From Eledone cirrhosa (taxonomy: Eukaryota), in the NCBI GenBank assembly GCA_964016885.1, contig OZ024742.1, forward strand, positions 9,362,001 to 9,426,000: a DNA stretch of 64,000 nt, in the 5' to 3' direction. A model generated the notes under the pieces. The model was given only the letters and a program-made list of their open reading frames with translations, was not told the DNA's origin and did no database searches. The translations under genes and the position numbers were made by a program. This document shows, one piece after another, positions 18,717 to 46,422 of the stretch (within the stretch, counting starts at the first letter, position 1; each line of letters opens with the position of its first letter).

Positions 18717-18767
<51 letters not shown>

Positions 18768-19170: not shown

Positions 19171-19172
<2 letters not shown>

Positions 19173-19820: not shown

Positions 19821-19858
<38 letters not shown>

Positions 19859-19859
19859 C

Positions 19860-21240: not shown

Positions 21241-21306
<66 letters not shown>

Positions 21307-22346: not shown

Positions 22347-22392
<46 letters not shown>

Positions 22393-23186: not shown

Positions 23187-23384
<198 letters not shown>

Positions 23385-23831: not shown

Positions 23832-24018
23832 ATTAATTGTTTCTACTTTTTAGCACAAGGCCATCAATAAACCAGTGCATTACTGGTACTTTATTTTATC
23901 GACCCTCTAAGGATGAAAGGCAAAGTTAACCTCGGCGGGATTTGAACTCAGATCATAAAGGGACGTAACTCTATGCTGCAAAGCATGGTGTCCCACGCTC
24001 TACTGATACTGCCAATCC
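23832..24018 (-). mobile_element. tRNA-derived SINE, common family, reverse orientation
   Basis: Reverse complement of the 11969 and 56831 copies (ggtactttattttatcgaccc..aaggatgaaaggcaaag...gggatttgaactcag). Confidence 0.85.
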
Positions 24019-24080
24019 AAAATAATTAATGTATTTCATACATTAGCTGTTGTTGCTGTTGTTGTTGATTTTGGTGGCAG

Positions 24081-24119
<39 letters not shown>

Positions 24120-24369
24120 GGAGGAGGAGGAGGAGGAGGAGGAGGGGGGGGGGTGAAAATGATTAATGACGACGATGTTGAAGACGATAATGATCAAAAC
24201 GATGTTATTAATGATGCTGATGAGGTGACGACGATGATGATGATGATGATGAGTATGGTGGGGATGATGATGATGATGAGTATGGTGGGGATGATGATGA
24301 TGATGAGTATGGTGGGGATGATGATAGAGAAGAAGGACATATAAGGGGACAAAATGTAAACCAGAAGCC

Positions 24370-24551
24370 ATAAAGGGTTAGACGTCATGATTTGCAGCAA
24401 AGAGTTACGGCCCTTTATGGTCTGAGTTCTAATCCCATCGATTAACTTTGCCTTTCATCCTTACGGGATCTATAAGATAAAGTACCAGTAATACACTGGG
24501 ATAATTGCTGGCCTTGTGCCAAAAGTAGAAACAATTATTATTATTATTATT
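24370..24551 (+). mobile_element. tRNA-derived SINE with (ATT)n tail, forming the left boundary of the LINE block
   Basis: Same core as other copies; tail gccttgtgccaaaagtagaaaca then (att)n at 24534-24551. Confidence 0.85.
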
Positions 24552-25215
24552 CTTTGAGTCTCAGTCATTGATGTTATTTAAGTGGAAAGTTTGTTGAAAT
24601 GAATATCAAGCCGTTACCTGCAGCCTAAAATATTCAGGACGTATCGGAGGGTTCTTGCTGTTCCCAGCAAGCATGCCTTTTGAAGTGTTCCAAAAAGCGG
24701 GGCTGGATTAATTTTCTTTAATCATTCTTGGAAACTTTTTGAGATAGTACCTAGTGCGCCTATGACAATCGGGACGACTCTGACTTCATGGCTGTTCCAA
24801 ATCCTTTTAACCTCCCACTTTATGTCCTGGTATCGGTTAATTTTATCCCTCTCCTTCTCTTGCACTCTCGTGTTGAATGGGCAGGCCACATCCACAATCA
24901 GGCATGATCTTTTTTCCTTGTCCAAAACCACCAGGTCAGGTCTATTGTGTTCCAGTTTCTTGTCCGTCTGTATCCTAAAATCCCATAGCACCTTCACCTG
25001 ATCGTTTTCTATCACCGACTCATACCACTTCTCAGAGTGCGGTAAATTGTTTACTTTGCATAGGTCCCAGTGGATCACCCTGCCCATCACATCATGTCTC
25101 CAGCCTTTATAGTGAGTCTGAGTTAGGAGTTTACACTCGGATACAATGTGAGCCACAGTCTCCTCTCTCTCCACATATCCTACACAGTGGGCTAGTCTCC
25201 TCCTTGTAAATATGG
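24552..25215 (-). mobile_element. 3' fragment of an RLE-type (R4/Dong-like) non-LTR retrotransposon with (TAA)n tail
   Basis: Minus strand: SPLCRICGE/EETVAHIVSEC (CCHC, frameshifted), RHD, WDFRIQTD..NRPDLVVLD...IVDVACP...KERDK..RY (PD-(D/E)xK nuclease), PIVIGALG, LQKACLLGTARTLR, a short 3' UTR, then (TAA)n. Confidence 0.85.
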
Positions 25216-28200
25216 CAAGACATGGGAACCCCGAATGTGAAACCCACACCGTGACTTTTAAAAGGGTTCCCCCCAAAAAAAACCACCAACCATGGAGGTC
25301 GAACCACCCGACCTTCAAGACCCCGGGAGGTAAGTAAACCTTCCCTTTCTCTCTTAGCTTACCAACATGGCCATATTAAGAGTAGGAAGTTTAAATGTTC
25401 GCGCCCTGGGGTCACCCTGGAAGCAGGGTCGCCTTCTCAACGACCTCAGGTCGCTGGAAATGGATGTGATTGCCGTAAGCGAGACCAGAATTTCCGACAC
25501 GTGCACACTAGTCACCATTTGCGACGACTATCAGATCTTCGCATCTGTTAGCAGGCCGGGAATAGGGGGGGGGGGGGGTGGCAGTGCTGTTTAGGAAAGG
25601 ACTGGATCTCGAGGTAAAGTCGATCTTCCGGGACCCGGACGGTAAGTTGGTGGTCTTGGATGTGAGCAGTAGCGAAGTTGGTGCCTTTAGACTGCTGGCC
25701 GTCTACGCCTCTTCAGGGGCCGGACGACCGGAATACTTTAGGCGCCTGGAGACCTTCTGGGTACGTCTCGCCCTTTACTGTTAGCGGGGGACCGGAATGA
25801 CATTTTAGACGCACGCTAGGATTGTGTGGGAGTAGCCGATAGGAGCGTGGGGTGCAAAAGCCTCAAGCACCTACTCAGCCAGTTCCAACCGTCTGACAGG
25901 TATCGACTAGATTTCCCCAATATGCCAGTATGGACATGGACCAACCAAATGGGGTCATCTAGATCGTATATAGACAGGATCTTCATTAGGAAAATAGATA
26001 GAAATAGTGTAGGCTACTCACTTTTTAAAACGGTCGCCTATTCAGATCACACATTTGTGATCTGTACGGTGGACCTAGATAAAACGCGTAGGTTAGGACC
26101 GGGTTACTGGAAGCTGAACATTTCATTTCCGGCACGTAAGACTTACACGGACCGAGTCAACAATTTAGTTAAGCAAAAGTTGACAGGGGGGATCATCAAC
26201 AACAGATGGTGGGGGGCTCTCAAAAGAGAGATTAGAGTAACTTCCATAGAGTTCAGCAAAGAACTAGCGTTAGAGAAAAATAGAAAGGAAGGGGAGCTGG
26301 TAGATAGTTTAGACGAGGCTATTTGTAGTGGCATTGCAACTATTTCTTCAATGCGAAACACGAAGGTTGCATTGTCAGAGCTAAGGCGCGTGCGCTGAGA
26401 AATGAGAGAACCAAAGCTGTTCGATGGGCCCGCGTGGCGGAGACGCAGCGTGGTAATAAAACCATAATTCGGTCGTTAGCGAACCGAGACGGACACGAGA
26501 TAAGCGATTCCAAGCGGATGTATGAGGCCTTTCACCAGCACATTGCTCGGTTGTTCGGAGAGAGTGGCGGGTCAGAGAGAATAGAGGATTTCACTCCCTA
26601 TCTTGGCGGCTTGCCGCGCATCTCGACGGTCGACGCTGAGCGCTGCGAAAGGCCGATTACTTCAGCCGAAATTCAGGACGCCCTTGTCGGCTGCATCAGG
26701 CGCAAGTCCCCCTGTTTGGTTGGCCAGCCCTATGAGCTTTACATAAATATGCCAGACTTGTTCTCCGATCTCCTCGAAGCACTCTACTGCAACTGGAAGT
26801 AGAATGGGAGTATTCCCAGTTCTGTGAGCAGGGGAGTGGTGACGCTGATAAGGAAAGACGAGAACAAGAGGGATACATTAGACAACTTCAGGCCCATAAC
26901 TCTGCTCAACACACAGTTTAAGATTTTGGCCAAGGTGTTAGCAAAGAGATTGGCGCTTGTCGTCGAGGATTTGGTTGGGGAGGCGTAAACTTGGGCAATC
27001 CCAACCAGGTCCATACACGACAATCTCCACCTAATGCGATACATCATAGAGAGGGTAGGGTGTAAACCTGGCTTCGGTGGGGCACTGATCAATTTAGATC
27101 AATCGAAAGCATTCGATAGGGTCGACCATCGGTATCTGGAGTTTGTCCTCAAAGCAGCTGGCTTCAGCCCTGTCTTTAGAAGCTGGATCGTTGCAATGCA
27201 CAGCGGCACACGCTCGGTGGTCAAGGTTAATGGCCACCTCTCAGAAGAATTTCGGCTCTCCCGATTGGTCCGTCAAGGGTGCCTCTCTCTTCCTTTCTGT
27301 ACGTATTGACTCTCGAGCCTTTACTGCGGAAGCTGGAGCTGTTGCAGGGAATCTCCCTCGAACCGGGACGTGGAAAGGCGGTGTCGGCTTATGCGGACGA
27401 CATCACCGTGATGGTGTCGAACACCTCAGAAATCGAGGTGGTCGGCACCTTATTGAAAGAAAATGAAAGGTTGTCAGGAGCCAAACTTAACCCGGAAAAG
27501 TCGGTGGGCTTGCAGCTCGGAACCTGGAGAGGCAAGCCCATGCCGTCCAAGAGCGTCGTGGGACGCTTGACGGACGGACCAGTAGAGTTGCTTGGAGTTT
27601 GGTTCGGACCAGACCTCCAGGTGGAAAAGAATTGGGACGAGGTAACGAGCAGAGTAGCCAGTCTCACCCAAAAATGGGCTGGGAGGAAGGTATTACTGAA
27701 AGGTCGCGCGGAGGTGGCGAATGCTTACATCGCGTCCGTCATCTACTACCGCCTGACCGTCGTGCCTTGCCCCCGTCCGTGCCTCGTCAAGTTGGAACGG
27801 CTCCTCTTCAAATTCTTGTGGAGGGGACAAGATCCGTTGGTGAGGCGGTCCATCTGCTGCCAGCACCCTCTACGCGGAGTGCTGGGCATGCCGTGGCTAA
27901 TGATGCGCAGACATGCGTTGAGGCTGCGACATCTCCAGATATTCTGCCTCAACGGTGAACAGGTGTGGTCGCCGTTTATCAGACGGGCCTTTCCGCACCT
28001 CATTTCTTTGACTGAGCTGCAGTCCTGGGTCAAGAAGAGACCGAGACTGGGGGGACTGGCACCTGGAATGTTGCCAGGCACTCACTGCCCTCCACCAAGC
28101 AGGCAATGCGATCAGTGAAACTTCCACTCTCGAGTTCTATAGAGGATTAGTGGTGGGAAGTGCGATGAGGCACTCGGAGAAGCTTTGGGCCTCGACGAAG

Positions 28201-29013
28201 TCGAACTGACCAGTCTCTACCGGAGGACTTTCGAGCCGGGGACGATAGACAATTTCCAGAAATCCCTCGCGTGGCAGTGTTACCGTCGGGCACTGCTGGT
28301 TCGGGATAAACTCTACAGGCACGGAAGTGCTTTCAGACGGACCTGCCCAAGATGCGCACAGAAAGACGAAACCGTTCTGCACGCAATTGTCCAATGTCCG
28401 TGCATTACTGACTTGTGGAGTTATGTTGAATAATTACTGTCGCGTGTGGAACGAATCCGGCTATCGGCCGAGTCCATAATGAAGATCGACCCGCCGCCTT
28501 CCTTAGGTCAGGAAGAGCAGGAAATTTTCCTCTGTCTGGTGGCAGTTGCGAAAGAGGTTATATGGTGGACCAGGTAAAAAGGACTGAAGAGGCAAGTGCT
28601 GCCTTCTAGCAAGTTTGTTGAAAGGTGGGTGAATGTAGCGAGAATGGTCCGAGTTAACGGGACCGCTCTGAATATACGTCTGCTGTTTGAGAGATGGAAA
28701 AATCGAGAGAAGGCGCTTGCCCTAGTAGTCAGGGTGGCCGTGGTCTTTTGTGTGGTTTTCGCCACGAGTAACCCTCGGAGGTCCCCCCCCCCGCCCTTTG
28801 GGGAATTTTTCATTGTTTCAATTTTCATTTTTATTGTTTATATATATATGTTTCTATGTTCTTTTTTTTCTTTTCTTATATAAATAATAAAAATATTTAC
28901 AGGCACAAAACCTACATCGTACCGTCCTGTACCGTCCTTTGCCGTCTCTAATGTTTTTCTTGATGTCAGCCCTTGTGGCCAATAAAGAAATCATTATTAT
29001 TATTATTATTATT
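25216..29013 (+). mobile_element. L1/Tx1-like LINE copy A (5'-truncated, chimeric 3' end)
   Basis: 25216-25357 matches the ORF1 end of copy C. Disrupted ORF2 follows, ending aataaagaaatc(att)n at 28981-29013. Confidence 0.9.
25367..28690 (+). pseudogene. Copy A ORF2 (APE endonuclease-RT-CCHC), multiple frameshifts and stops
   Basis: SLNVRAL, SET, YIDRIF, YSDH, LDQSKAFDRVDH, VRQGC, AYADD, CPRCAQKDETVLHAIVQC. Confidence 0.9.
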
Positions 29014-29218
29014 GTTGGTGAAGCCATGCTTCTTATCGCCTCCAGTCTTTTTCAACGTTTTACCTCTTTTTCAACCGTTCTAAACCTTTTATTCAAGTTT
29101 TAAATTTGATAAAAGTTTAGAAGAAGTGACCCACCTAATAGTAAATAACACGGCACCCCTTTACGGGGTGTCGTATTCGCATTTGTGTAAACATTTTTTT
29201 TTTTTTTTAAATTTCAAC

Positions 29219-30745
29219 ATGGATAACACAAAGAGAGAGGGCGCTGTCAGACAACACAGAGAGGGGGAGACTTTATCAGCATGTCAACAAGACAGCGTTC
29301 CAGCGGAGGTAAATACAAACGAAAATATTACAAAGGAAAAAAAGATTGTTACAGATTTAAAATTAACAAATATTTCTAACACAAACAACACCAACAATAA
29401 CACCAACAACATCACCAACAACAACACCAAAAATAACAGCGGTAAAGTCGAGAACGACAATAACAAAAATAACAGCGGTAAGGTCGAGAACGATAATAAC
29501 AATGACAATAACAACAGCCACAACAACAATAATAGTAGGAACAGTATCAACAAAAACAACAATAATAACAACAGCCACAATAACAGTAACAGCAGCAACA
29601 GTATCAACGAAAGCAACACCAACAACTGTACTAGCGAAAAGAACAACAATGACACCGATACCTGTAATTGCGACCTCAGCACCACCAGTAAGACCAGTAG
29701 CGGCAGCAATAGTGGTGCTGCTGAAAAAGGGACCACTTCTTTTGCAGGTGTCGCCCGAAATATCGAGACAGTGTTAGTCACAGAGGAGGAGATGGCAGTC
29801 GCAAGGGCCATGGTGACAAGAAGCGCAAATAGAGATTCCCTGAAACCACCACCCGATTTGTTCAAGGACCAGCAGCTACGAACGGTGACTTACCGCACCG
29901 TAAGCAAAATCTCACATCGAGTGGAGAGAGCCACAGAGACTCAAATCCAAAAGGCCTTGGGGTGCGTCTGGGCACGGAAAACCCACATCACACGAGGCAG
30001 AAAGTACGCCACAGTAGACGTACTTTTCGCTATCCCCCAGGAAGCAAAGTCTCACTCTTTGGAAACCCTAAAGAGTGAGGAGTTAGTCTTGGTGCCCTCC
30101 TACTGCGGGCAGAAAATTGTGAAGGTCAAAGTGACCCAGGTCCCACCCGACGTGCCCATACCTTGGCTGGCCGCGTCTGTCCTTGCTGGAATTGAGAACA
30201 GGGCGACCCTGCTGCAAGTGGAAAAAATAGGGAGAGAGAACTGGTCAGGTATAGGCATGCAAATGCTTATACAAACTGACCAGGAATGTATCGAAACTAT
30301 CCCCGATATCATAGACTTTGAGGAAGGACTCCAACTCCCTATAAGTGTAGAAGGACGACGGCCAAAATGTTATCTCTGTGGGTCGAAAGGTCACTTCAGG
30401 GCCTTTTGCTCGCAGAAGACACCGAAGAGGGCCCCTCTCCTTCCAATACATAGTCCGCTGCTACCAAGAGCAGGACAGGCAACAAACGAAGAAGCCCCTT
30501 CCACGGTGAGTAGGAGGGTAACGTCCGTAGCACCCGTACCAAGGCCATGGATAACTAAAGCAGCAGCTTCAGTAGCGGTAACACCAATAGCTACATTTGA
30601 AATAGCTACACCAGCAACAAAATTGCCGAAGAGGGCTCCACTACCACCACCAACAGCCGTGGAGCAAATACCCCTCCCAGACGCCACAGAATCCGACATG
30701 GAGTTTGAGGCGGGAATGACGTGGCAAACAGTCTGCCACAAATAA
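29219..30745 (+). CDS. Copy B ORF1, gag-like with CCHC knuckle; originally extended to ~31115
   Basis: Asn-rich N-terminus, SFAGVA, RPKCYLCGSKGHFRAFC (CX2CX4HX4C) and a Pro/Thr-rich tail; homologous to copy D ORF1. Confidence 0.8.
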   Translation: MDNTKREGAVRQHREGETLSACQQDSVPAEVNTNENITKEKKIVTDLKLTNISNTNNTNNNTNNITNNNTKNNSGKVENDNNKNNSGKVENDNNNDNNNSHNNNNSRNSINKNNNNNNSHNNSNSSNSINESNTNNCTSEKNNNDTDTCNCDLSTTSKTSSGSNSGAAEKGTTSFAGVARNIETVLVTEEEMAVARAMVTRSANRDSLKPPPDLFKDQQLRTVTYRTVSKISHRVERATETQIQKALGCVWARKTHITRGRKYATVDVLFAIPQEAKSHSLETLKSEELVLVPSYCGQKIVKVKVTQVPPDVPIPWLAASVLAGIENRATLLQVEKIGRENWSGIGMQMLIQTDQECIETIPDIIDFEEGLQLPISVEGRRPKCYLCGSKGHFRAFCSQKTPKRAPLLPIHSPLLPRAGQATNEEAPSTVSRRVTSVAPVPRPWITKAAASVAVTPIATFEIATPATKLPKRAPLPPPTAVEQIPLPDATESDMEFEAGMTWQTVCHK

Positions 30746-31150
30746 AAAAATAATAAAAAACCCTTAGATTCACCCTTCAAAAGCGAAGGCATACAAAGAT
30801 GGGTAAAGGCAGCAAGGAAACTTGCAGCAACACCATCACAAACACCAACAACGCAAACACAACAATACACACTCACCAAACAGCAACAAGAAGATAACGG
30901 CAACAAAATCACCCCTCCCCCCAAAAAGTACACAGCCATAAACATAGCAAAAAAAGAACTCATAAAATATATAAAGCAGCACACAGACATCACGGAAAAA
31001 AATTACTACACCCCACCAACACCAAGAACTCTCCCGACAAACATAAGCATCATCGAAATCTCAATAGAACAATACAAACCTTCAATACAAAAATTTCCCA
31101 CACGAACAAGGTAAGTGACCCTTTCTCATTTGCCCCATTTCTCATCCAAC

Positions 31151-34100
31151 ATGGCTGTACTCAGAATAGGCAGTATAAATGCAGGTGGCCTGGGGGTCAT
31201 CTTGGAAGCAGGGTCACCTGCTCAATGACCTCAGGTCACTAAACATAGATGTGGTGGCCATCAGTGAAACCAGAATCTCCGAGGCACGGGCCTTCGCACC
31301 GTACCTCGGCGGCTACGATGTATACGCATCTCCCAGCGGTCCAGGATCGGGGGGAAGGGGTGACGTCCTTTTTCGGAGAGGCTTGGATCTCGCGATACCA
31401 TCTTCCTGGACCCAGAAGGTAAGTCGGTGATGCTGGACGTGACTGGCATCGAAGGCAATGCTTTCAGGCTAGTAGCCGTCTACGCCCCAACGGGGGCAGG
31501 ACGGCCAGATTTTTTCAGACGTCTAGAGACCTTTCTTGGAACGTCCCGCTCTTTAGTGTTAGTGGGCGACTGGAACGGTATCTTGGATGCACGCTGGGAT
31601 CGTGTGGGGCTAGTAGATAGGGGAGGAGGGTACAAGAGCCTCACCGACCTGCTCAGACGCTTTAAACTGTCTGACAGGTATCGACTGGATCACCAGAATG
31701 TGCCAATGTGGACATGGACAAACAGCGTCGGGTCATCCAGATCGTATCTAGATAGGGTATTCTGCAGGGAACTAGATAAGGCTAGTAAAAGTTGTCCACA
31801 ATTTAAAATAGTCGACTACACAGACCACACATTTGTGATCTGTGAGATCGACATAGACAGACTTCATAGACAAGGGCCTGGTTACTGGAACCTGAACGCG
31901 TCTTTCCCGGCGCACAAGGTTTACAGAGACCGGATAAGCGTATTAGTTAAGCGGGCGTTGACGGGAGCGGTCGTCAATAACAGGTGGTGGTTCGCCCTTA
32001 AAAGGGCAATTAAAGTAGAGTCGATTAGGTTTAGCAAAGGAGTAGTGATAGAGGAAAATAGAGTAGAGGGCGAGCTAGTCAGAAAGCTAGAAGAGGCGTT
32101 TAGGACAGGCATCGCAACCGACGTGCTTGCGGCGAGATTGGCGCTCGACCAATTCTTCAACGCAAAACACGAAGGCTGCGTTGTCAGAGCTAGAACGCGT
32201 GCTCTGAAACACGAGGGGACAAAAGCCGTCTAATTGGCCCGGGTGGCAGAGGCGCGACGTGGCAACAAGTCCACAATTCGGTCTTTGCCTGATCAAAACG
32301 GGCGCATGTTGCTCGAACCCGAGCAGATGTGTGCGGCTTTTCAGCAGCACTTTGCTGAACTGTTCGGGAGCGGCGGCGGCCCGGATCGGGACATGGACTT
32401 CAGTGCATACCTCGACGGACTTCCTCGGCTCTCGACTACCGCAGCACAGTGTTGCGAAAAGCCATATAACAGCCGGTTAAATACGGGAAGCGATGGCTAA
32501 CTGCACAAGAGGTAAATCGCCAGGTTTCGTTGGTCTGCCCTACGAGCTTTTTGCATTTATGCCAGACTTGTTCGGTGACCTCTTGGCAGACGTCTACTGC
32601 AACTGGCAGCAGAACGGGAGCATTCCCAGTTTTGTGAGCCGGAGAGCAGTGGCGCTGCTGAGAAAAGACCCGAACAAGGGGGATGTTATTGATAATTTCA
32701 GGCCCATAACCCTGCTAAACGCAGAGTTCAAGATTTTGGCCAAGATGTTAGCAACGAGGTTGGCGCTTGTTGTCAAGGGTCTGGTTGGAGAGGCGCAGAC
32801 ATGCGCCATCCCGGACAGATCCATACACGACAACCTCCACCTCATGCGATACATCATAGAGAGGGTGGTTAAGGAACCTGGCAAAGGTGTGCCCTGATCA
32901 ACTCGGATCAATCCAAAGCATTCGATAGGGTCGACCATCGGTACCTGGCGGCGGTCTTCGAGGCAGCCGGTTTCGGGCCCGTTTTCATGCGTTGGATCGC
33001 AGCAATGTACAGTGACATCTGGTCAGTTGTGAGGGTGAACAGTCACCTGTCGCAGCCGTTCAGCATCATGCGCTCAGTCCGCCATGTTTGTCCCCTCTCG
33101 TCCCTCTTGTACGTATTGGCTCTCGAGCCGTTACTGCACAAACTGAGGGCGATGAGGGGCGTCCCACGCGAACTAGGATGCGGGAAATCCGAGTCGGCTT
33201 ACGCTGACGACGTCACCGTGGTGGTGGCGAGCACCAGACACATCCAGATGCTCGGCACCGCTCTCAAGGAATACGAAGCGGTGACAGGAGCAAAGATAAA
33301 CCAGGAAAAGTCGGTGGGCTTGCAGCTAGGCACCTGGAGAGGCAAGTCCATGCCGTCCGACAGCGTCGTGGGGCGTTAGACGGACGGACCGGTTAAATTG
33401 CTCGGGGTCTGGTTCGGAGCGGACCTCGAGATGGAGAAAATCTGGAACGAGGTGACGAGCAGGGTGGCTTCTCTCACCCAGAAATGGGCTGAGAGGAAGC
33501 TATCGCTGAAAGGCCGGGCGGAAGTGGCGAATGCGTACATCGCATCCGTCATCTGCTACCGCCTCACCGTCGTCCCTTGCTCCAGCCGAATTCTCACCAA
33601 AATGGAGCGCCTCCTCTTCCGCTTTTTGTGGAAGGGACGCGCTCCCATGGTCAGACGATCCATCTACTGTCAACACCCGTTGCGTGGAGGACTTGGCATG
33701 CCATGGCTGATGATGCGCAAACATGCTTGAGGCTGCGACATCTCTGGTGCTTCCTTGCTGGTGAACGGGTGTGGTGGCCGTTCGCCAGGCACATTTTCCC
33801 ACAGCTCGTCTCCTTGACGGAGTTGCAGTCCTGGGTCAGAAAAAGTCCGAGGGTAGCGCTTGGAAACTGGAATGTCTCCAGGCGCTCACTGCCATCTCCC
33901 AGTTGGGCACCACTATCGGTGGAACATCCACCTCGGCGTTCTATAGAGGACTAGTGGAGGGGAAGAGCGACGACGTTCTCGAAGAGATCCTGGGCGTCGA
34001 AGAAGATCAGCTGCGTGCTCTCTTCCGGAGAACTTTCAGCCCGGGGCCTATGTATAACTTCCAAAGATCCCTGGCCTGGCTGTGATACCGGGGAGCGCTG

Positions 34101-34545
34101 CCGGTTCGAGATAAGCTCTACAGGCATGGAAGTGCCGTCAGCCGAGCCTGACCTAGATGCGCGCATAGCGACGAAACCGTTGTGCACGCACTCGTTCAGT
34201 GCCCGAGCATTGCTGACTTGTGGAGCTATGTCGAACAGTTTCTGTCACGTGTGGGACTGATCCGGTTGTCGACTGAGTCCATTGTGCAGATGGTCTCGCC
34301 GTCTTCCTTTGAGGAGGAAGGGCAGGTGGTTTTCATCTGCCTGGTGGCCATGGCGAAAGAGATTGTGTGGTGGACAAGGTTAAAAGGATTAAAGACAAAC
34401 ACTTTCCTCTTCGCGAATCCCTGATTAACTTTTTCAAGTTTCACTTGAAGAGGAAAATCAGGGTGGAGAGGCAAGTGCTGCTTTCTAGCAAGTTTGTTGA
34501 AAGGTGGGTGAATGTAGCGAGAATGGTCTGAATATACGTCTGTAG
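31151..34545 (+). pseudogene. Copy B ORF2 (APE-RT-CCHC), disrupted
   Basis: MAVLRIGSINA, AVYAP, GDWN, YLDRVF, TDH, RPITLLN, AYADD; many frameshifts and stops. Confidence 0.9.
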
Positions 34546-34831
34546 TTTGAGAGATGGAAAAATTGTGAGAGGGCGCTTGCCCTGGTAGTCAGGGTGGCCG
34601 TGGTCTTTTATGTGGTTTTCGCCACGAGTAACCCTCGGAGGTTTCCCCCCTATTGGGGAATTTTTCATTGTTTCAATTTTCATTTTATTGTTTATATATA
34701 TATATGTTTTATGTCTTTTTTCTTTTCTTATATAAATAATAAAAATATTTACACGCACAAAACCCACATCGTCCGTCCTGTTCCGTCTGTGATGTTTTTC
34801 TTGATGTCAGCCCTTGTGGCCAATAAAGAAA

Positions 34832-34868
<37 letters not shown>

Positions 34869-35094
34869 GGCCGCACATGTGTGAAGACAGACAAGTCTGC
34901 GGGGAAAAAGGTTCGTAGCTTTAAGCTGTTTTAAAGTATCTTTTTTTGTATTTTCTTGTCATTAACGAAACTTAAGGTACACATCTTGATTTAAAGAGAA
35001 GGATACCTCTCAATATTCGGCCTTTAAGCCCGAATATTCAGATTTATTTTTTAAAAACTTCGAAAAAAATCGCTTCCCCACCCACCAAAAAATT

Positions 35095-37045
35095 ATGGAA
35101 ATTTTCGACCTTGAAACGGTAAACAACGTTCAGGTCAAAAGTTTAAAGGCAGCCACTGTAGATTTCACCACGACTACGACGGCTACAGTCATGCCTGTCA
35201 TCCACTCTACTGAATGTTAAGGCAAAACTAAAAAGCTACCATCACAACCTTCTGCCATAGCAGCAGTATCATCTGAAAACGACATCACCACCACCGCCAC
35301 CACCAACCACAACAACAACACAGAGCAATAACGACAATAACTCCGACAGCTTCAATGTAAATAAGGATGGCGGTGTCAACAGCAAGAATGACAACAACAA
35401 CAATAAGAGCATCAGAAACACCACATTTGCTGCAGCAGCAGCAAAAACAAAGCGCTTATTGAATATTGATATTGATATTAGCGATAAAGACGAACAGTTG
35501 GCCAAAGCGTGGAGGCTAATTAAACGGGAGAAGTCTTGGGCAAACCTGACCATCCCGGACGAGGCAATAGCGGCCATGCAAAGGAGGACGGTGCTCTTTC
35601 GATGTATTTCGGTGCAGACACGAAAAGTGGAACTTGCGAGCCAAGCAGAGGTAGAGGCTGCTTTGGAGTACATCGGAAGTAACATAGAGTACAAAGCAAG
35701 AGGCAAACAGTTCGGTACCATCTCGGTACTGTTCAAAACCGAGGCCCTCTCTATTAAGCACTCGGTGACCCCCTGCAGAACGGAACGCATTATCATGAAT
35801 CCGTCCTATATGGGTAAAAGGACAGTGAAGGTACGCATTCCCAGCATCCCACCAGGAATGAACATAGGGTGGCTGTTGGGATGCGTAATCGAGGAGGGGA
35901 CAGACACCACCCTCCTGGACATCAAAAGGACAGAGAGAGAGGACTGGTCCGGAATGGATTTGGAGATTCTTCTCCAAATGAAACTGGAGGATATGAATAA
36001 CATCCCAGATTTTGCCCGCCTGCAGGACGGGACAACAGTCCAACTAATGATTGACGGAAGAAGGCCACGTTGCTTCGTTTGCGGGGAAGCAACGCATCTT
36101 CAAGCCTTCTGCCCTCAGCGGAAAAATGCAGGGGGTCGCAAACCTCCTTTGTTGCCAACGCCAATGTCAGCACGGAAAGCTGCACCACCACCACCACCAA
36201 AAACAGCATCAACAAAAACACGGACACCAACATCAAAAGCTGCCGGATCACCACCAACACCAAAACCAATCCAAGGAGAAAACGAGGAAAGCTCTCCCAC
36301 TCCCCCTACCCCCCCCCCCCAATTATACACATAGACAAAAAAAATAATAAACGCACACACAGACACAGAGACACTCACAGACACAGACCCTTTGTCTTCC
36401 AGCAGCGAAGATGAAGGAAAACCCAAAAGTGCAGAAAAACAGAGAAAACTCACAAAAAAAAAGCCCCAACAAAACACAAAAACGCACACAACAAAAAATA
36501 CAGACACCACTAACGCAAACACTTCCCCAATAACATCAGCACCATCAGCAACATCGACACCACCTCCAAAATCCCCGAAACGCAAACAACCTAAACAAAC
36601 ACAAGTACAAATAAACACACAAATACCTGAAATTGCAGATACCACACCTACAACAAACATAGACATACCCGAAACAACACCACCAAAACCATCGCCACCA
36701 CCTTCACCAAAACGAAAACAAATAAAACCACACCAACAAAATGTTAAAAACTTCGTGCTAGTCAGAAGGGCCAACGATAAACTGATGGCCCTCTTAGCGC
36801 GAAGCGAGGACATTCAAACAGAGGGGGAGATTTTTGAAATGAGCACATTTTGCGTGCCAGAAGATTTGCTTCTGGTCCGAATGTCACTCAATTCCTTCAA
36901 AGAAATTCGAGAGAGCTTTCCTCAAGACGTGGGAAACCCGAATGAGAAACCCACATCAAGACTTTTAAAGGGTTTCCCAAAAGAAACTCCACCCGACATT
37001 CACAAGACCCGGGAGGTAAGTAAACCTTCCCTCTCTCTCTCTTAG
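35095..37045 (+). pseudogene. Copy C ORF1, gag-like with CCHC knuckle, disrupted
   Basis: Track ORFs 35459-36334 and 36392-37045; RPRCFVCGEATHLQAFC; Pro/Thr-rich region. Confidence 0.8.
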
Positions 37046-37054
37046 TTTACCAAT

Positions 37055-40000
37055 ATGGACATATTAAGAGTAGGAAGTTTAAATGTTCGCGGCCTGGGGT
37101 CACCCTGGAAGCAGGGTCGCCTGCTCAACGACCTCCGGTCGCTGGAAATGGATGTGATTGCCGTAAGCGAGACCAGAATTTCCGACACGCGCGCACTAGC
37201 CCCCATTTTCGACGACTATCAGATCTTCGCATCTGTTAGCAGGCCGGGAATGGGGGTGGGGTGGCAATACTGTTTAGGAAAGGACTGGATCTCGAGGTAA
37301 GGTCGATCTTCCAGGACCCGGACGGTAAGTTGGTGGTCTTGGATGTGAGCAGTAGCAAAGGTGGTGCCTTTAGACTGCTGGCCGTCTACGCCCCTACAGG
37401 GGCTGGACAACCTGACTTCTTTAGGCGCCAGGAGACCTTTCTGGGTACGTCTCGCCCTTTATTGTTAGCGGGGGACTGGAATGGCATCTTAGATGCACGC
37501 TGGGATTGTGTGGGAGTAGCCGATAGGAGCGGGGGGTGCAAAAGCCTCAAGCACCTACTCAGCCAGTTCCAACTGTCTGACAGGTATCGACTAGATTTCC
37601 CCAATGTGCCAGTATGGACATGGACCAACCGAATGGGGTCATCTAGATCGTATATAGACAGAATCTTCATTAGGAAAATAGATAGAAATAATGTGGGCTG
37701 TCCACTTTTTAAAACGGTCGCCTATTCAGATCACAAATTTGTGATCTTTACGGTCGACCTAAATAAAACGCGTAGGTTAGGACCGGGTTACTGGAAGCTG
37801 AACATGTCATTTCCGGCACGTAAGGCTTACAGGGACCGAGTCAACAAGTTAGTTAAGCAAAAGTTGACAGGGGGGATCATCAACAACAGATGGTGGGGGG
37901 CTCTCAAAAGAGAGATTAGAGTAACTTCCATAGAGTTCAGCAAAGAACTAGCGGTAGGGGGCTGGTAGATAAGTTAGACGAGGCTATTTGTAGTGGCATC
38001 GCAACTGACGTGCTTGCGGCGAGAATGGCATTAGACCATTTCTTCAATGCCAAACACGAAGGTTGCATTGTCAGAGCTAAGGCTCGTGGGCTGAGAAACG
38101 AGGGACCTAAAGCTGTTCGATGGGCCCGCGTGGCGGAGGCGCAGCGTGGTAATAAAACCACAATTCGGTCTTTGGCGGACTGAGACGGACACGAGATAAG
38201 CGATTCCAAGCGGATGTGTGAGGCCTTTCGCCAGCACTTTGCTCGGTTGTTCAGGGAGAGTGGCGAGTCAGAGAGAGTAGCGGATTTCAGTCCCTACCTT
38301 GACGGCTTGGTGCGCATCTCGACGATCGACGCTGAGCGCTGCGAAAGGCCGATTACTTCAGCCGAAATTCAGGACGCCCTTATCGGCTGCATGAGACGCA
38401 AGTCACCCGGTTTGGATGGCCTGCCCTATGAGCTTTACGTAAATATGCCAGACTTGTTCTCCGAACTCCTCGAAGCACTCTACTGTAACTGGCAGCAGAA
38501 TGGGAGTATTCCCAGTTCTGTGAGCAGGGGAGTGGTGACGCTGATAAGGAAAGACGAGAACAAGAGGGATACATTAGACAACTTCAGGCCCATAACTCTG
38601 CTCAACACAGAGTTTAAAATTTTGGCCAAGGAGTTAGCAAAGAGATTGGCGCTTGTCATCGAGGATTTGGTTGGGGAGGCGTAAACATTCGCAATCCCAG
38701 CCAGGTCCATACACGACAATCTCCACCTCATGCGATACATCATAGAGAGGGTAGGGTGCAATCCTGGCTTCGGTGGGGCACTGATCAATTTAGATCAATC
38801 GAAAGCATTCGATAGGGTCGACCATCGGTATCTGGAGTTTGTCCTCAAAGCAGCTGGCTTCGGCCCTGTCTTTAGAAGCTGGATCGTTGCAATGCACAGC
38901 GGCACACGCTCGGTGGTCAAGGTTAATGGCCACCTCTCGGAAGCATTTCGGCTCTCCCGATCTGTCCGTCAAAGGTGCCCTCTCTCTTCCCTTCTGTACG
39001 TATTGACTCTCGAGCCTTTACTGCGGAAGCTGGAGCTGTTGCAGGGTATCCCGCTCGAACCGGGACGTGGAAAGGCGGTGTCGGCTTATGCGGACGACAT
39101 CACCGTGATTGTGTCGAACACCTCAGAAATCGAGGTGGTCGGCACCTTATTGAAGGAATATGAAAGGTTGACAGGAGCCAAACTTAACCCGGAAAAGTCG
39201 GTGGGCTTGCAGCTCGGAACCTGGAGAGGCAAGCCCATGCCGTCCAAGAGCGTCGTGGGACGCTGGACGGACGGACCAGTAGAGTTGCTTGGAGTTTGGT
39301 TCGGACCAGACCTCCAGGTGGAAAAGAATTGGGACGAGGTAACGAGCAGAGTAGCCAGTCTCACCCAAAAATGGGTTGGGAGGAAGCTATCACTGAAAGG
39401 TCGCGCGGAGGTGGCGAATGCGTACATCGCGTCCGTCATCTACTACCCGCTAACCGTCGTGCCTTGCCCCCATCCGCGCCTCGTCAAGTTGGAACGGCTC
39501 CTCTTCAAATTCTTGTGGAGAGGACAAGTTCCGTTGTTGAGGCGGTCCATCTGCTGCCAGCACCCTCTACGCGGAGGGCTGGGCATGCCGTGGCTAATGA
39601 TGCGCAGACATGCGTTGAGGCTGCGACATCTCCAGATATTCTGCCTCAATCGTGAACAGGTGTGGTCGCCGTTTATCAGACGGGCCTTTCCGCACCTCAT
39701 TTCTTTGACTGAGCTGCAGTCCTGGGTCAAGAAGAGACCGAGACTGGGTGACTGGCACCTGGACTGTTGCCAGGCACTCACTGCCCTCTACCAAGCGGGC
39801 AATGCGATCAGTGGAAATTCCACACTCGAGTTCTATAGAGGATTAGTGGTGGGCAAGTGCGATGACGCACTCGGAGAAGCTTTGGGCCTCGACGAAGTCG
39901 AACTGACCAGTCTGTACCGGAGGACCTTTGAGCCGGGGACGATGGACAATTTCCAGAAATCCCTCGCTTGGCAGTGCTACCGGGGGGCACTGCCGGTTCG

Positions 40001-40457
40001 GGATAAACTCTCCAGGCACGGAAGTGCTGTCAGACGGACCTGCCCAAGATGCGCACAGAAAGACGAAACCGTTCTGCACGCAATTGTCCAATGTCCGTGC
40101 ATTACTGACTTGTGGATTTATGTCGAACAGCTACTGTCGCGTGTGGAACGAATCCGGCTATCAGCCGAGTCCATAGTGAAGATCGAGCCGCCACCTTCCT
40201 TAGGTCAGGAAGAGCAGGATATTTTCCTCTGTCTGGTGGCAGTTGCGAAAGAGATTATATGGTGTACCAGGTTGAAATGACTAAAGACAGACACTTTTCT
40301 CCTCGGCCAATCCCTCATCAACTTCTTCAAGTTTCACCTGGAAAGGAGGGTGAGGGTGGAGAGAGAAGTGCTTCCCCCCAGTACATTTGCTAAAAGGTGG
40401 GTGAATGTGGCGAGAATGGGTCGTGTGAATGGGCCTACTCTGACCATGCGCCTATAG
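37055..40457 (+). pseudogene. Copy C ORF2 (APE-RT-CCHC), disrupted
   Basis: SLNVRGL, GDWN, YSDH, KSPGLDGL, LDQSKAFDRVDH, AYADD, CPRC..H..C; longest intact piece is 38730-40280. Confidence 0.9.
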
Positions 40458-40630
40458 GCTGGCTAACTTGAGGAGAGGGGTGCTGTCCTGGGTGCCCTAG
40501 AAGCGCAGGGTGGTTCAGGATTGGTGGGGTACCCCAATCACCCCAGGTGCCTGTTATTTGGCCCTTCGGGGTTAAATAACTGCTTATTGGGATTTTGTAC
40601 CCAATATTTATTTTAAACAAAAAAAAGAAC

Positions 40631-42737
40631 ATGGCTACGAAAAAGAAATTTCATAGGTCACTCCCACTCATTCCGTCTTCTTCTTTCTCAATCATCACTA
40701 CAGCAGAGAGAAGATTGTCTCTCTCCCTCCCTTCTTTAAATGTGTCTCTCTCCCTCCCTTCTCTTTCCCAAGCGACGAAAGAAAAGAAAAGTCTCGTGCA
40801 AAGCGTGCAAGGTTTCTCCACGACGACGACGACAGCGACGAAACAGGTGTGCGGGAAATACGAAAACCCAGTTCATTCGTCTGACGTCAGGAATAATAGC
40901 AGTAGCAGCCGTAATAACAACAGCAACAGTGACAATGAAAACAACAGTAGCAGCCGCAACAGCATCACCAGCAGCATAAACAACAACAGCATTAGCAGCA
41001 GCAAAACCAACAACAACCACAGCAACAGCGGCGGAGGCAGTAGTCGTAGTACCTGCAGCAACAACAAAAGTACCAGCATCTCTGACGACAACAACAACAA
41101 CAGCAGCAAAGAAAAACCAATCTCATTTGCAGGTATTGCGAAAAACTTGGAAACAATCTTCATAACAAATGAGGAATTAGAGGAAGCGAAGAAGATGGTG
41201 ACAAAGAATGGACACCGAGCAATCTGCAAGGCAGCGGAAACATTTTTCGAAACCCAACAGCACTGTACGGTCACGTACCGTACAGTAAGTACAAAATCCC
41301 GTAGGGTGGAAAGAGCCACAGAGGCTCAGAAACAAAAAGCCTTGGGGTCTGTGTGGCAGCGGAAAACGCACATCACCCGAGGCAAAAAATATGCCACCGT
41401 AGACGTACTTTTTGCCACACCCCAGGAGGCAAAGGCCCAATCCGTAGTGACCCTAAGGAGGGAGGAAATGGTGTTGGTGCCCTCCTACTGCGGGCAAAAA
41501 ATTGTGAGGGTCAAACTGACCCACGTCCCCCCCCCCCCCGGAATGGCCCCTTCTTAGCTGGCCGCGTCTGTCCTCGTCGGAATCGAGGACAAAACAACTG
41601 TACTGCAAGTACAGAAAAAAGTAAGAGAAGATTGGGTCGGCACCTCCATTGAGATGCTAATCCAAACCAACCAGGAGTGCATCGAAGCTATCCCGGATGT
41701 GATAGACTTCGATAACGGCACTCAACTGCCCATATGTGTTGAGGGAAAACGCCCGAAATGCTTTCGCTGTGCATCGAAGACTCACCTCAGGGCCTTCTGC
41801 AACGAGAAGACCCTGAGAAAGGAGAAAACCCCCCTCCTTCCAAAACCGGCTCCACGGCTACCAGCAACAGGACAAGCGGCAAACAGGAACGATAGGTCCG
41901 TGGCACCCATATCCACGCCACGGAAATCAAAAACAGCAGCAGCAGTGGAAATATTAACAACAACAACAGCAATACCAAATGCAGCTGCAACAGAGACTCC
42001 AGTGCAAACATCACCAACAACAACAAGTGAAAGAGTGGAGCTGGTACCCCTCCCTGACCTCACAGAATCAGACATGGAGTGTGAGGTGGGAGAGGGATGG
42101 CAAAAGGTCGTAAGAAGGCACAAACGCAGAAACAGCGCATCGTCGCCTTTGAAAAGGGAGGAAAGAAATGAGAAAAGGGTAAAGTCTACTGCAAAGAGAC
42201 CCACAGCAGCAACACCACCAACACCATCACCGCCCACACCAGCACCACCATCACCACCGGCGACAACCCTACCACCAACAACACCTTAAACACCACCACC
42301 ACAAGCACCAACATCGCAAACACAACAACAAAACACACACACCCAGTAACAACGACAAGAAAATAGCAGAACCACACCCCACCCCCAGAAAAACAAATGC
42401 AAGGCAATAAATACACACAACAAGAAACTAATTACTTACATAATTGAACACAGACATTTCACAACACGACTACATAATACCAGCACCAATCAAAACGCCA
42501 ACTAACATAAGACTGCTAAAAATAGCACAGAAACAATACACAAACATTAAAACGAAATTCCCCAACGCAGTTGGTGATTTCAGGGACCTAGGAGGAACTA
42601 TCAATCGAAAAGTATATTCAGACATTCTCTTAGAAGAGCCGACGACCAGCCGAAGGGACGATTCAACGGTCCCTTCACCAGACGATCAAGTGAAAAGAGA
42701 TGTAAAAACCATCCCTCCTCTATCAAAAGTACGGTAA
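40631..42737 (+). pseudogene. Copy D ORF1, gag-like with CCHC knuckle, interrupted by stops/frameshift
   Basis: Ser/Asn-rich N-terminus, SFAGIA, RKTHITRGKKYATVDVLFA (nearly identical in B), RPKCFRCASKTHLRAFC. Confidence 0.85.
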
Positions 42738-42772
42738 GTGGTCTTTCCCATCTTTTCCACTCTATTTTAAAC

Positions 42773-45700
42773 ATGACCTCACTCAGAATAGGCAGCGTAA
42801 ATGCGCGTGGCTTGGGGTCGTCATGGAAGCAGGGTCACCTGCTCAACGACCTCAGGTCACTAAACATAGATGTAGTGGCCATCAGCGAGACCAGAATCTC
42901 CGAAGCACGGGCCTTCGCACCGATCTTCGGCGTCTACGATGTGTACGCATCTCCCAGCCGTCCTGGATCGGGAGGAGGAGTTGCTGTGCTTTTTCGGAGA
43001 GGTTTGGATCTCGCCATACGGGCCATCTTCCTGGACCCAGAGGGTAAGCTGGTGGTGCTGGACGTGACCAGCGGAGACGGGCAAGCTTTCAGGCTAGTGG
43101 CCGTCTATGCCCCGACAGGAGCAGGGCGGCCTGATTTCTTCCGGCGTCTGGAGACCTTTCTTGGAACGTCCCGCTCTTTAGTGTTAGTGGGCGACTGGAA
43201 CGGGATCTTAGATGCACGCTGGGACTGTGTGGGATTACCGGATAGGGGTGGAGGGTGCAAGAGCCTCACCAACCTGCTCAGGCGTTTTGAAATGTCTGAC
43301 AGGTACCGATTGCATTTCCCGAATGTGCCAATGTGGACAAATCGTATAGGGTCATCCAGATCATATCTAGATAGAGTATTTTGTAGGGAAATAGATAGGT
43401 CTAGCATAGGCTGTCCACAATTCAAGATAGTCAGCTACACGGACCACAAATTCGTGATCTGTGTGCTTGACTTAGATAGGCTTCATAGACGAGGACCCGG
43501 CTACTGGAAGCTAAACGCGTCCTTACCAGCGCGCAAGGCCTACAGAGACCGGATTAGAGAACTAGTTAAGCGGGCGTTGACGGGGGCCATCGTCAACAAC
43601 AAGTGGTGGTTTGCTCTGAAAAGAGCGATTAGAATAGAATCGATTACGTAAGGCTTTAGCAATAGAGAAAAATAGAGCAGAGGGAGAACTAGTTAGAAAA
43701 TTAGACGAGGCGCTTAGCAAAGGCATTGCGACCGACGTGCTTGCGGCGAAATTGGCCCTTGACCAATTCTTCAATGCAAAGCACGAAGGTACCAATAGGC
43801 CCGAGTGGCGGAGGCGCGTCGTGGCAACAAATCCACGATCCGGTCTTTGGTGGACCACGACGGGCGCATGCTACTCGATCCCGGGCAAATGTGTGAAGCT
43901 TTTCAGCGACACTTCGCTCAGCTGTTCGGGGGCAGCGGTGGGCCGGGTCGAGGGATGGACTTTAGTGTCTACCTCGACGGACTGCCGCGGCTCTCGCCCA
44001 CTGAGGCGAAGTGTTGCGAAAAGCCGATAACAGCCGCTAAATTACGGGAGGCAATGACTAGCTGCACAAGGGGTAAATCGCCTGGTTTGGATGGTCTGCC
44101 CTATGAACTTTACGTACAGATGCCAGACTTGTTCGGAGGCCTCTTGGCGGACGTCTACTGCAACTGGCAACAGAACGGGAGAATTCCCAGTTCTGTGAGC
44201 CGAGGAGCGGTGGAACTTCTGAGAAAGGATCCGAACAAGGGGGATAACATAGATAATTTCCAGCCCATAACTCTGCTAAACACAGAGTTCAAGATTTTGG
44301 CCAAGGTGCTAGCAAAGAGGTTGGCGCTTGTCGTTGGTGGTCTGGTGGGAGAGGCGCAGACATGCGCCATTCCCGACAGATCCATCCACGACAACCTCCA
44401 CCTCATGCGATACATCGTAGAGAGGGTAGCTAAGGAACCTGGCACGGGTGGGTCCTTGATCAATTTAGATCAGTCGAAAGCTTTCGATAGGGTCGACCAT
44501 CGTTACCTAGCGGCAGTCCTGAGGGCGGCTGGCTTTGGGCCCGTCTTCAGAGGCTGGATCGCTGCCATGCACAGCGACATCTGCTCTGTGGTGAGAGTGA
44601 ACGGTCACCTTTCGGAACCGTTCAACATCATGCGCTCGGTCCGCCAAGGATGTCCCCTCTCGTCCCTCTTGTATGTATTGACTCTCGAGCCATTACTGCA
44701 CAAACTGGAGACGTTGAGGGGAGTCCCGTGCGAACTAGGATGCGGAAGATCCGTGTCAGCATATGCGGACGATGTCACCGTAGTGGTGTCGAACGCCAAA
44801 CACATCGAGGCGATCGGCACTACACTAAGAGAATACGAAGCGGTGACAGGAGCAATGATCAACCAGGAAAAGTCAGTGGGCCTGCAGCTCGGCACCTGGA
44901 GAGGCAGGTCCATGCCGTCCAACAGCGTCGTCAGACACTGGACGGACGGACCGGTTAAATTGCTAGGGGTCTGGTTCGGTCCGGACCTCCAGACAGACAA
45001 AAACTGGGACGAGGTGACGAGCAGGGTGGCTTCTCTCACCCAGAAATGGGCGGAGAGAAAGCTATCCCTGAAAGGTCGAGTGGAGGTGGCTAACGCGTAC
45101 ATTGCGCCTGTCATCTGCTACCGCCTGACCGTCGTACCTTGTCCTAAGCCTCGCCTGACTGCGCTGGAGCGTTTGCTCTTTCGCTTTTTGTGGAAGGGAC
45201 GCGCTCCGATGGTCAGGCGGTCCATCTGTTGTCAACACCCGCTACATGGAGGGCTGGGCATGCCGTGGCTGATGATGCGCAGGCACGCGCTCAGGCTACG
45301 ACATCTCCACCTCTTCCTCGACGGTGATCAGGTGTGGTCGCCGTTTGCTAGACACGTATTTCCCCAGCTCGTTTCCTTGACGGAGCTGCAGTCCTGGGTC
45401 AAGCGAAGACCGAGAGGGAGCGCCTGTAGACTGGAATGTCTTCAGGCGCTCACAGCCCTCGACCAATCGGGCAATGTGATCGGTGGAAACTCCACCTCGG
45501 CGTTCTATAGAGGATTAGTGGAGGGGAAGAGCGACGACGTACTTGGGGAAACTCTAGGCTTCGACGAAAATCAACTAGCCAATCTCTTCGGAAGAACTTT
45601 CGGGCCAGGGCCTATGGACAACTTCCAGAAATCCCTGGACTGGCAGTGCTACCGAGGAGCCTTGCCAGTTCGGGATAAACTCTACAGGCATGGAGGTTCA

Positions 45701-46129
45701 GTCAGCCGGGCATGTCCGAGATGCGCGCAGGGCAACGAAACCGTCCTGCACGCACTCGTCCAGTGTCCGAAAATTGCTGACTTGTGGGTTTATGTAGAAC
45801 ACCTGCTGTCGCGTGTAGGACGGATCCGGCTATCATCTGAGTCCATCGTGAGGATTGCCCCGCCCTCCTCCTTTAGCCAGGAAGGGCAGGCAGTTTTTAT
45901 CTGTCTGGTGGCCATGGCGAAAGAGATAGTATGGTGGACACGTTTGAAAGGGCTGAAGACGAGCACTTACCTCTTCGGTGATGCTCTGATTGACTTTTTC
46001 AAATTTCATTTGAAAAGGAAAATCAGAGTAGAGAGGGAAGTGCTCTCTTCCCAGCATTTTGTTGAAAGATGGGTGAGAGAAGCAAGAATGGCTCGAGTGA
46101 ATGGGCCTACTCTGAGTATATATCTGTAA
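42773..46129 (+). pseudogene. Copy D ORF2 (APE 42773-43651; RT-CCHC 43805-46129), split by small deletions
   Basis: GSVNARGL, SET, GDWN, YLDRVF, TDH; KSPGLDGLPYE, QPITLLN, LDQSKAFDRVDH, VRQGCPLS, AYADD, CPRCAQGNETVLHALVQC. Confidence 0.92.
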
Positions 46130-46366
46130 ATTAAAGGTGGAAAACTGGGAGAGGGCACTTGCCTTGGTGGTCAGGGTCATTGTGGCTTTTTACTGGGCTT
46201 TCTCCACAAATGTCCCTCCGAAGTCTCCCCCTATTGGGGAATTTTTCATTGTTATTTTTTGTTACATCCTCTGTTTTTGTTTTTTACACGCAGAAATGCC
46301 CATTTGTATTGTCCTGCACTGTCCTTAATGTCTACTTCATGTAAACCCTTGTGGTTAATAAAGAAA

Positions 46367-46422
<56 letters not shown>

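What the first reader, a model, noticed from the sequence alone, without database searches (positions are those of the whole stretch)
24534..46422. 22-kb (ATT)n-targeted retrotransposon train: four head-to-tail Tx1-like LINEs of two subfamilies
Seen: four LINEs lie on the same strand with no host DNA between them. B starts right after A's (ATT)n, C starts right after B's, and the whole block is bounded by (ATT)n. ORF1s differ strongly (C versus B/D), so this is not a simple tandem duplication. Established: some Tx1-clade families are microsatellite-specific (Kibi, TC repeats; Koshi, TTC repeats). Inference: this family is (ATT)n-specific and its tail recreates its own target, so self-extending arrays build up in the manner of telomeric retrotransposon trains. 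I cannot confirm whether it has already been described.
Basis: partly seen in the sequence, partly recalled or inferred. Interest (0 to 1): 0.75.

Follow-up and report, generated by a model that had tools for sequence, protein, structure and literature searches.

The report
ATT-repeat-targeting LINE train, partly trimmed
Four dead copies of an abundant jumping-gene family lie end to end here, and across this likely octopod genome the family's intact front ends sit almost always behind an ATT repeat, so chains like this one likely grow because each insertion leaves fresh ATT landing sites.

Summary
The train is real and the targeting holds genome-wide, but the local anatomy was overstated. Four same-strand APE-RT LINEs lie at 25216-46422, all with broken ORF2s, from three subfamilies. 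Only the A|B and B|C joints are (ATT)n. The left (ATT)6 is a SINE's tail, followed by 664 bp of an inverted RLE-type (likely Dong) LINE. The Dong|A and C|D joints lack ATT, and A is a C/B chimera. Genome-wide, 2,427 of 2,505 D-type 5' ends sit directly behind TTATTATT; about 14,500 exact tails exist. About 30% of intact 5' ends follow a family tail against roughly 12-20% expected, so trains are mostly a by-product of targeting, and they are interstitial, not telomeric. Added here: in 4 of 7 informative same-subfamily pairs, a young upstream copy carries the old downstream copy's first 0.7-2 kb, as if its front end was copied from the neighbour. Tx1-clade membership stayed unresolved. The scan had already reported this family, the shared Dong target and the SINE tail on other DNA of this genome. 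New member of a known kind.

The parts
24386..24533 (+). SINE (3' part). Its end shares a CTTGT-loop hairpin and ATT tail with the LINE 3' ends
   Evidence: many 84-96% matches in the window and in fetched loci; the 3' stem differs by paired changes between SINE, B and D (seen in the sequences and folds)
24534..24551 (+). (ATT)6: tail of the SINE and 3' flank of the inverted RLE LINE; not A's 5' flank
24552..25215 (-). 3' 664 bp of an RLE-type LINE, likely Dong/R4 (CCHC and PD..D-type motif, read by eye), facing away from the train
   Evidence: ORF; 87-94% matches abutting ATT tracts in many loci; other copies run on past 25215; the Dong label is inferred from target and anatomy, with no reference sequence compared
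25216..28992 (+). Unit A: 5'-truncated C-type body (to 28590) fused to a B-type 3' end (from 28591; AGA microhomology); ORF2 broken
   Evidence: 92% to C 36923-40287 and 85% to B 34464-34857; junctions; frame breaks and stops
28993..29013 (+). (ATT)7 joint A|B
29014..34833 (+). Unit B: full-length B-type copy; ORF1 from 29219 with a CCHC knuckle, ORF2 from about 31151; both broken
   Evidence: true 5' end
34834..34868 (+). (ATT)11 joint B|C
34869..40547 (+). Unit C: C-type copy with intact 5' end; lacks about the last 200 bp and its tail; ORFs broken
   Evidence: true 5' end; other C copies run on past 40547
40548..46368 (+). Unit D: D-type copy lacking the first ~130 bp, joined to C without ATT; ORF1 from 40631, ORF2 42773-46129; both broken
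46369..46422 (+). (ATT)18 tail and right boundary

Best explanation
This is a train of four dead copies of an L1/Tx1-type LINE lineage whose intact 5' ends sit behind (ATT)n genome-wide, and it likely grew by successive target-primed insertions into one ATT tract, with three joints likely trimmed by deletion. Shown: target association, same-strand polarity, (ATT)n tails, short target duplications where the tract has markers, and trains on several chromosomes. Inferred: the APE endonuclease nicks in or beside the tract; the (AUU)n RNA end pairs with the freed (AAT)n strand and primes reverse transcription; the second nick usually falls in ATT. Each insertion would thus leave ATT on both sides and add a target. 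Trains would then grow at both ends: new copies were seen downstream of old ones (3 pairs) and upstream of old ones (7 pairs). When the new copy lands upstream of a related resident, its cDNA likely often finishes by pairing with the resident's 5' end, which duplicates 0.7-2 kb and yields a full-length chimera (inferred, about 60%). The three non-ATT joints in this window would be target-site deletions at insertion or later deletions; I cannot tell which.
For: 2,427 of 2,505 D 5' ends follow TTATTATT. 90 of 90 best B/C/D 5' ends, 30 of 30 position-ordered D 5' ends and 31 of 31 intact copies among 60 tails follow ATT. 5'-truncated copies also start in ATT in 7-11 of 25 cases, so ATT is not merely part of the element's 5' end. 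Marked duplications: 16 bp in L347; ATT plus the first 8 bp of the downstream D in L342; 30-45 bp at C1:22M, 57M and 90M. Mixed-subfamily trains cannot be plain duplications. 5' copying: units identical to the old neighbour up to column 664, 1446, 1659 and about 2000, with locus-private alleles shared, and at C1:76M a 759-bp spacer duplicated with 1 difference. 10 of the first 100 D 5' ends have another D one unit-length upstream, against 2.5-4% expected. Young copies have intact ORF1 (~697 aa) and ORF2 (1139 aa).
Against: Only 2 of the 5 internal joints in this window are ATT. 14 or more of 25 truncated copies lack ATT at their 5' joint. No nicking or insertion assay exists, and no empty allele was seen. 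The null for train frequency is rough: 6 of 50 sampled tracts, or about 14,500 exact tails over about 100,000 tracts. My two position-ordered samples overlap, so the pooled p-values are too generous. 5' copying was absent in 2 of 7 informative pairs and ambiguous in 1. Unequal crossing-over with an empty allele gives the same chimeric product.
Confidence: 0.85

Rival explanations
1. Targeting comes mainly from RNA-DNA pairing, not from the endonuclease. A loosely specific nick becomes productive only where the (AUU)n tail, and possibly read-through ATT at the RNA 5' end, can anneal. This is compatible with the best explanation and changes only the source of specificity.
For: 3' joints pair with imperfect tracts and can lie outside the pure repeat (C1:57M and 90M joints). 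Intact 5' ends are almost always at ATT (97%) while truncated ones are far less often (7-11 of 25). An earlier scan note (e1-10314439) raised the same idea.
Against: Truncated copies, which lack the RNA 5' end, still often start in ATT. The literature read here attributes target choice mainly to the endonuclease (PMC4494074, PMC3812793, passages).
Confidence: 0.4
2. Trains, and the chimeric upstream units, arise mainly after insertion by unequal crossing-over or gene conversion between neighbouring copies.
For: In the 11-unit train at C4:350.7 Mb, nine D units alternate two 5' types, two differ by 2 substitutions, and alleles are mosaic. An 816-bp spacer is repeated exactly at C1:55M. An 11-unit train exceeds the longest neutral train simulated (5-10).
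Against: This window's units are 72-92% identical and of three subfamilies. Most young tandem pairs differ as much as dispersed copies do. The four clear switch points all lie in the 5' third (p about 0.015 if uniform; a post hoc test).
Confidence: 0.2
3. The family specifically prefers its own tails, making a dedicated self-extending array system as in telomeric retrotransposon trains.
For: About 30% of intact 5' ends follow a family tail (9 of 30; 30 of 90 by eye) against 12-20% expected.
Against: The excess is only about 1.5-2.5-fold. SINE tails, Dong ends and plain tracts supply about 70% of targets. Tails are more often next to Dong-like ends than to family members. Trains are interstitial (window at 9.4 Mb of a 379-Mb contig).
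Confidence: 0.1
4. The array is an assembly artefact of collapsed or mis-joined repeats.
For: Short-read contigs of four public runs did not bridge the two joints tested, which is uninformative for such repeats. Long reads were not available.
Against: The units are mutually divergent with private lesions, there is no N in the window, and the same joint types recur across many chromosomes.
Confidence: 0.04

Closest known systems
Kibi (TC)n, Koshi (TTC)n and crocodilian (TTCC/TTTC)n Tx1 families (PMC4494074, passages and section 15; PMC3812793, passages)
   Same: APE-type two-ORF LINE inserted into a microsatellite in one orientation.
   Different: Target is (ATT)n/(AAT)n; about 14,500 exact tails and many young intact copies. 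In my tree the lineage did not group with Xenopus Tx1 or the Tetraodon pol-like protein with support, so the targeting may be independent.
Dong (R4 clade), reported in TAA microsatellites (PMC3812793, passage); Dong-R4 and L1-Tx1 families listed as recently active in Octopus vulgaris (PMC13282606, Table 1 passage)
   Same: Same microsatellite target; two Dong-like families abut this family's tails in 20 of 60 cases.
   Different: Dong-like elements here have a C-terminal RLE-type domain and face the opposite way; the train family uses an N-terminal APE. The passages read from the octopus papers mention no target specificity.
HeT-A/TART/TAHRE and SART/TRAS telomeric retrotransposon arrays (search listing and abstract starts only; details recalled)
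   Same: Head-to-tail, same-strand trains of related non-LTR elements.
   Different: These trains are interstitial, mixed with SINEs and Dong, short, and there is no sign of a chromosome-end role.
L1 cDNA switching to nearby homologous DNA (SDSA-like templated insertions; bioRxiv 10.1101/2024.08.27.596794, passage; the Gilbert et al. L1 chimera work is recalled, paper not held)
   Same: A nascent cDNA pairing with local homologous DNA and duplicating a genomic segment.
   Different: The passage describes templates under 250 bp in tumours. Here the duplicated stretches are 0.7-2.5 kb, lie in the assembled genome, and restore a full-length unit upstream of a resident copy.

Membership tests
L1 group non-LTR retrotransposon (L1/Tx1) | ORF2 with N-terminal APE, RT and C-terminal zinc-binding motif; separate ORF1 | tested here: met
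   PF03372, PF00078, PF13966; best solved relative is human L1 ORF2p, E 1.5e-52, against R2 at 8e-21
Tx1 clade | RT/ORF2 phylogeny groups with Xenopus Tx1 | tested here: inconclusive
   The family plus unnamed and cephalopod relatives forms its own clade (100/100) in a polytomy with the Xenopus Tx1 group. The AU test does not reject grouping with Tx1 (p 0.41). Only one named Tx1 reference was available, and no named L1-clade reference.
Tx1 clade | ORF1 with CCHC zinc knuckle (feature recalled) | tested here: met
   CX2CX4HX4C seen in ORF1 of B, C and D; no Pfam hit for ORF1
Microsatellite-specific LINE (Kibi/Koshi kind) | Target repeat in more than 20% of flanks (criterion in PMC4494074 methods passage) | tested here: met
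   97% of 2,505 D 5' ends; 38-42 of 56 classifiable copies among 60 tails
Microsatellite-specific LINE (Kibi/Koshi kind) | Endonuclease cleaves the repeat specifically | not testable with these tools
   needs a nicking assay
Kibi/Koshi lineage | TC or TTC target and nesting with Kibi/Koshi | tested here: not met
   The target is ATT. The family does not nest with the Tetraodon pol-like protein Q76IM5; that this protein belongs to the Kibi/Koshi set is recalled, not shown.
Telomeric retrotransposon train | Confined to chromosome ends or telomeric repeats | tested here: not met
   copies and trains are spread along contigs
Dong/R4 (for the inverted fragment) | RT plus C-terminal CCHC and RLE, in TAA repeats | tested here: inconclusive
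   RT hit and motifs read by eye; ATT/TAA at both ends; no reference sequence compared

The most novel reading that the evidence does not exclude
An independently evolved ATT-specific L1-group lineage uses its own trains as repair templates. A new cDNA primed in the ATT tract upstream of a resident copy completes its 5' end by copying that neighbour. This would regenerate full-length, promoter-bearing elements from dead ones, shuffle 5' ends between lineages, and help explain why about half of all copies are 5'-intact.
Probability: 0.35. Interest if true: 0.68.

Novelty: new member of a known kind. Interest (0 to 1): 0.47.

Why it matters
It adds (ATT)n to the known targets of APE-type LINEs and shows two unrelated endonuclease types sharing one microsatellite in opposite orientations. 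The family covered 2.2% of a 400-kb random sample and has many young intact copies. That makes it a practical system for asking whether the nuclease or RNA-DNA pairing sets target choice. If 5' copying is coupled to insertion, it is a natural, repeated example of a repair route mostly described in cell and tumour data.

Tried and rejected
Read support: short-read contigs of 4 runs (at most 2 samples, 1 study) laid on the C|D and Dong|A joints showed no bridging piece among those listed. This is uninformative. No RNA holder was listed. A single genome-wide count of tail-to-5' joints was not obtained, so train frequency rests on samples of 30-100. Rfam gave 0 hits in 23000-47500. The ESM Atlas gave only unnamed RT/APE clusters. 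The first tree (47 rows) finished only as a quick tree with long branches; a second run timed out without a tree; the 18-row tree left the backbone open. Literature: seven searches listed no paper on an ATT-specific L1/Tx1 family. Repbase and Dfam were not searchable. Figure 3 and the supplements of PMC4494074, which list Tx1 targets, could not be seen and may already include ATT. Rejected: left (ATT)6 as A's flank; two subfamilies; telomeric role; simple duplication for this window. Eight further loci and three re-joined pairs added only one informative pair for 5' copying, and it was negative.
Full report
Setting. The window is G000:C3:9362001-9426000 of a 3.0-Gb genome. The closest named ORF2 relatives are from Argonauta (68%) and a cuttlefish (47%), so the host is likely an octopod (inference).

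Observation. Four same-strand LINEs occupy 25216-46422, with APE, RT and zf-RVT domains. ATT tracts lie at 24534, 28993, 34834 and 46369 only. A|B and B|C are clean (ATT)n joints, and the starts of B and C are true 5' ends. The (ATT)6 at 24534 ends a SINE. It is followed by the inverted 3' end of an RLE-type LINE (24552-25215), which joins A bluntly. A is a C-type body (92% to C) fused at 28590 through an AGA microhomology to a B-type 3' end. C stops about 200 bp before its tail and D lacks about 130 bp of its 5' end, with no ATT between them. So 2 of 5 internal joints are ATT. B, C and D are three subfamilies: ORF2 DNA 72-79% identical, ORF1 protein 31% (B/C) and 59% (B/D). All four ORF2s are broken, and the nearest fetched copies are 93-98% identical.

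Target specificity. An exact 21-mer of the D 5' end occurs 2,505 times, and 2,427 of these follow TTATTATT (97%; reversed controls 0). All 90 best-scoring 5' ends of B, C and D follow ATT (this set includes the window's own two, the D query's own locus and one duplicated locus), as do 30 of 30 position-ordered D 5' ends. Exact tails number 11,541 (B/D/E type) plus 2,926 (C type). Of the first 60 listed B/D/E tails on C1, 31 are 5'-intact and all 31 follow ATT. Two could not be chained and two look like other subfamilies. Of the remaining 25 truncated copies, 7 start in ATT by score and up to 11 by eye. Where a tract carries markers, duplications are visible: 16 bp in L347, ATT plus 8 bp of the downstream element in L342, and 30-45 bp at three C1 loci.

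How special are trains? About 30% of intact 5' ends follow a family tail (9 of 30; 9 of 31, an overlapping sample; 30 of 90 by eye). Among sampled ATT tracts, 3 of 20 in 40 evenly placed 10-kb stretches and 3 of 30 position-ordered ones are family tails. Counts give a similar figure: about 14,500 exact tails over roughly 100,000 tracts of five or more units, the latter scaled from 65,958 tracts of one end phase. In a neutral model where each insertion splits a random tract, the two fractions are equal, and 38-549 trains of four or more arise for 14,500-30,000 insertions. The observed excess is thus about 1.5-2.5-fold. Downstream of the 60 tails lie 20 inverted Dong-like 3' ends, 12 family members, 4 SINEs and 24 others. 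The ATT niche is shared, and trains are largely a by-product.

Growth in both directions and 5' copying. I fetched tandem D loci chosen from the listings and aligned 31 units. Three pairs have an old copy upstream of a young one, which is ordinary insertion into a tail. Seven same-subfamily pairs have a young copy upstream of an old one. In four (C1:57M twice, 64M, 76M) the upstream unit matches the old unit's 5' end up to column 664, 1446, about 2000 and 1659, shares its locus-private alleles, and then switches to young-type sequence. At 76M a 759-bp spacer is duplicated as well, with one difference. Two pairs show no copying (C1:87M; the E-E pair at C1:26.6M) and one is ambiguous (C4 units 8-9). 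I read this as a long target duplication made when the cDNA pairs with the resident's 5' end (inference). Unequal crossing-over with an empty allele gives the same product; the 5' clustering of switch points argues mildly against it (post hoc). Ten of the first 100 D 5' ends have another D one unit upstream, against 2.5-4% expected. The 11-unit train at C4:350.7 Mb is mosaic and probably also expanded by recombination.

Mechanism. Shown: target association, polarity, tails, duplications, mixed trains, and intact young copies. From established LINE biology: target-primed reverse transcription begun by the APE nick. Inferred: tail-to-target pairing, a second nick in ATT, 5' completion on neighbours, and deletion as the origin of this window's three non-ATT joints. 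Similar trimmed joints and internal deletions occur in other older copies.

Comparison. Microsatellite-specific APE LINEs are known: Kibi (TC), Koshi (TTC), crocodilian TTCC/TTTC families, Waldo and Mino; Dong is reported in TAA (PMC4494074, passages and section 15; PMC3812793, passages). Octopus papers list L1-Tx1 and Dong-R4 families without a target in the passages read (PMC13282606, PMC9115989). My seven searches listed no ATT-specific L1/Tx1 family, but Repbase and the figure and supplements of PMC4494074 were not visible. The family is clearly L1-group. It forms its own clade, neither grouped with nor excluded from Xenopus Tx1 (18 of the 47 rows or their cluster members were kept, long branches dropped).

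Earlier scan notes. At least eight notes on other DNA of this genome already describe the ATT targeting, the shared Dong target and the SINE tail. I reached the first two before reading them and then saw the hairpin. A second look-up showed no note on 5' copying among the eight listed.

Verdict. A real feature and a new member of a known kind. Interest 0.47.

Noticed in passing
G000:C4:350712001-350792000 (L121-L128): 11-unit, ~66-kb train (one C-like, nine D, one E). Seven of the nine D units have intact ORF1 and ORF2; two 5' types alternate.
   Followed up: partly
window 24491-24551 vs 28951-29013, 46326-46390: SINE and LINE 3' ends share a CTTGT-loop hairpin with paired stem changes, then an ATT tail; candidate LINE-SINE partnership, already noted by the scan.
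   Followed up: partly
L291-L350: 31 of 60 copies are 5'-intact, a very high share for an L1-group family; at least five 5' UTR types share near-identical 3' ends.
   Followed up: partly
G000:C2:17970001-17990000 (L138-L139): A unit with a D-type 5' end on a B-type ORF2, an inter-subfamily chimera; earlier notes e1-9881507 and e1-9871205 describe splice-joined hybrids that may be related.
   Followed up: no
L290:6194-9406: Second Dong-like family with an open 1071-aa RT-RLE frame, flanked by ATT/TAA.
   Followed up: partly
window 5331-9212: 40-bp minisatellite, 97 copies, 91% matches.
   Followed up: no
window 14219-18190: 1-kb inverted repeats (96%) around a 513-aa minus-strand frame (15580-17121) that looks Penelope-like by eye; no Pfam hit.
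   Followed up: no
window 53961-56589 (-): Second Penelope-like element in broken frames, with a weak GIY-YIG hit (E 0.009).
   Followed up: no
window 57956-60586: 2.6-kb G/T-rich degenerate tandem repeat with extreme GC skew (0.9); similar skewed repeats may occur near Dong-like 5' regions (L289).
   Followed up: no
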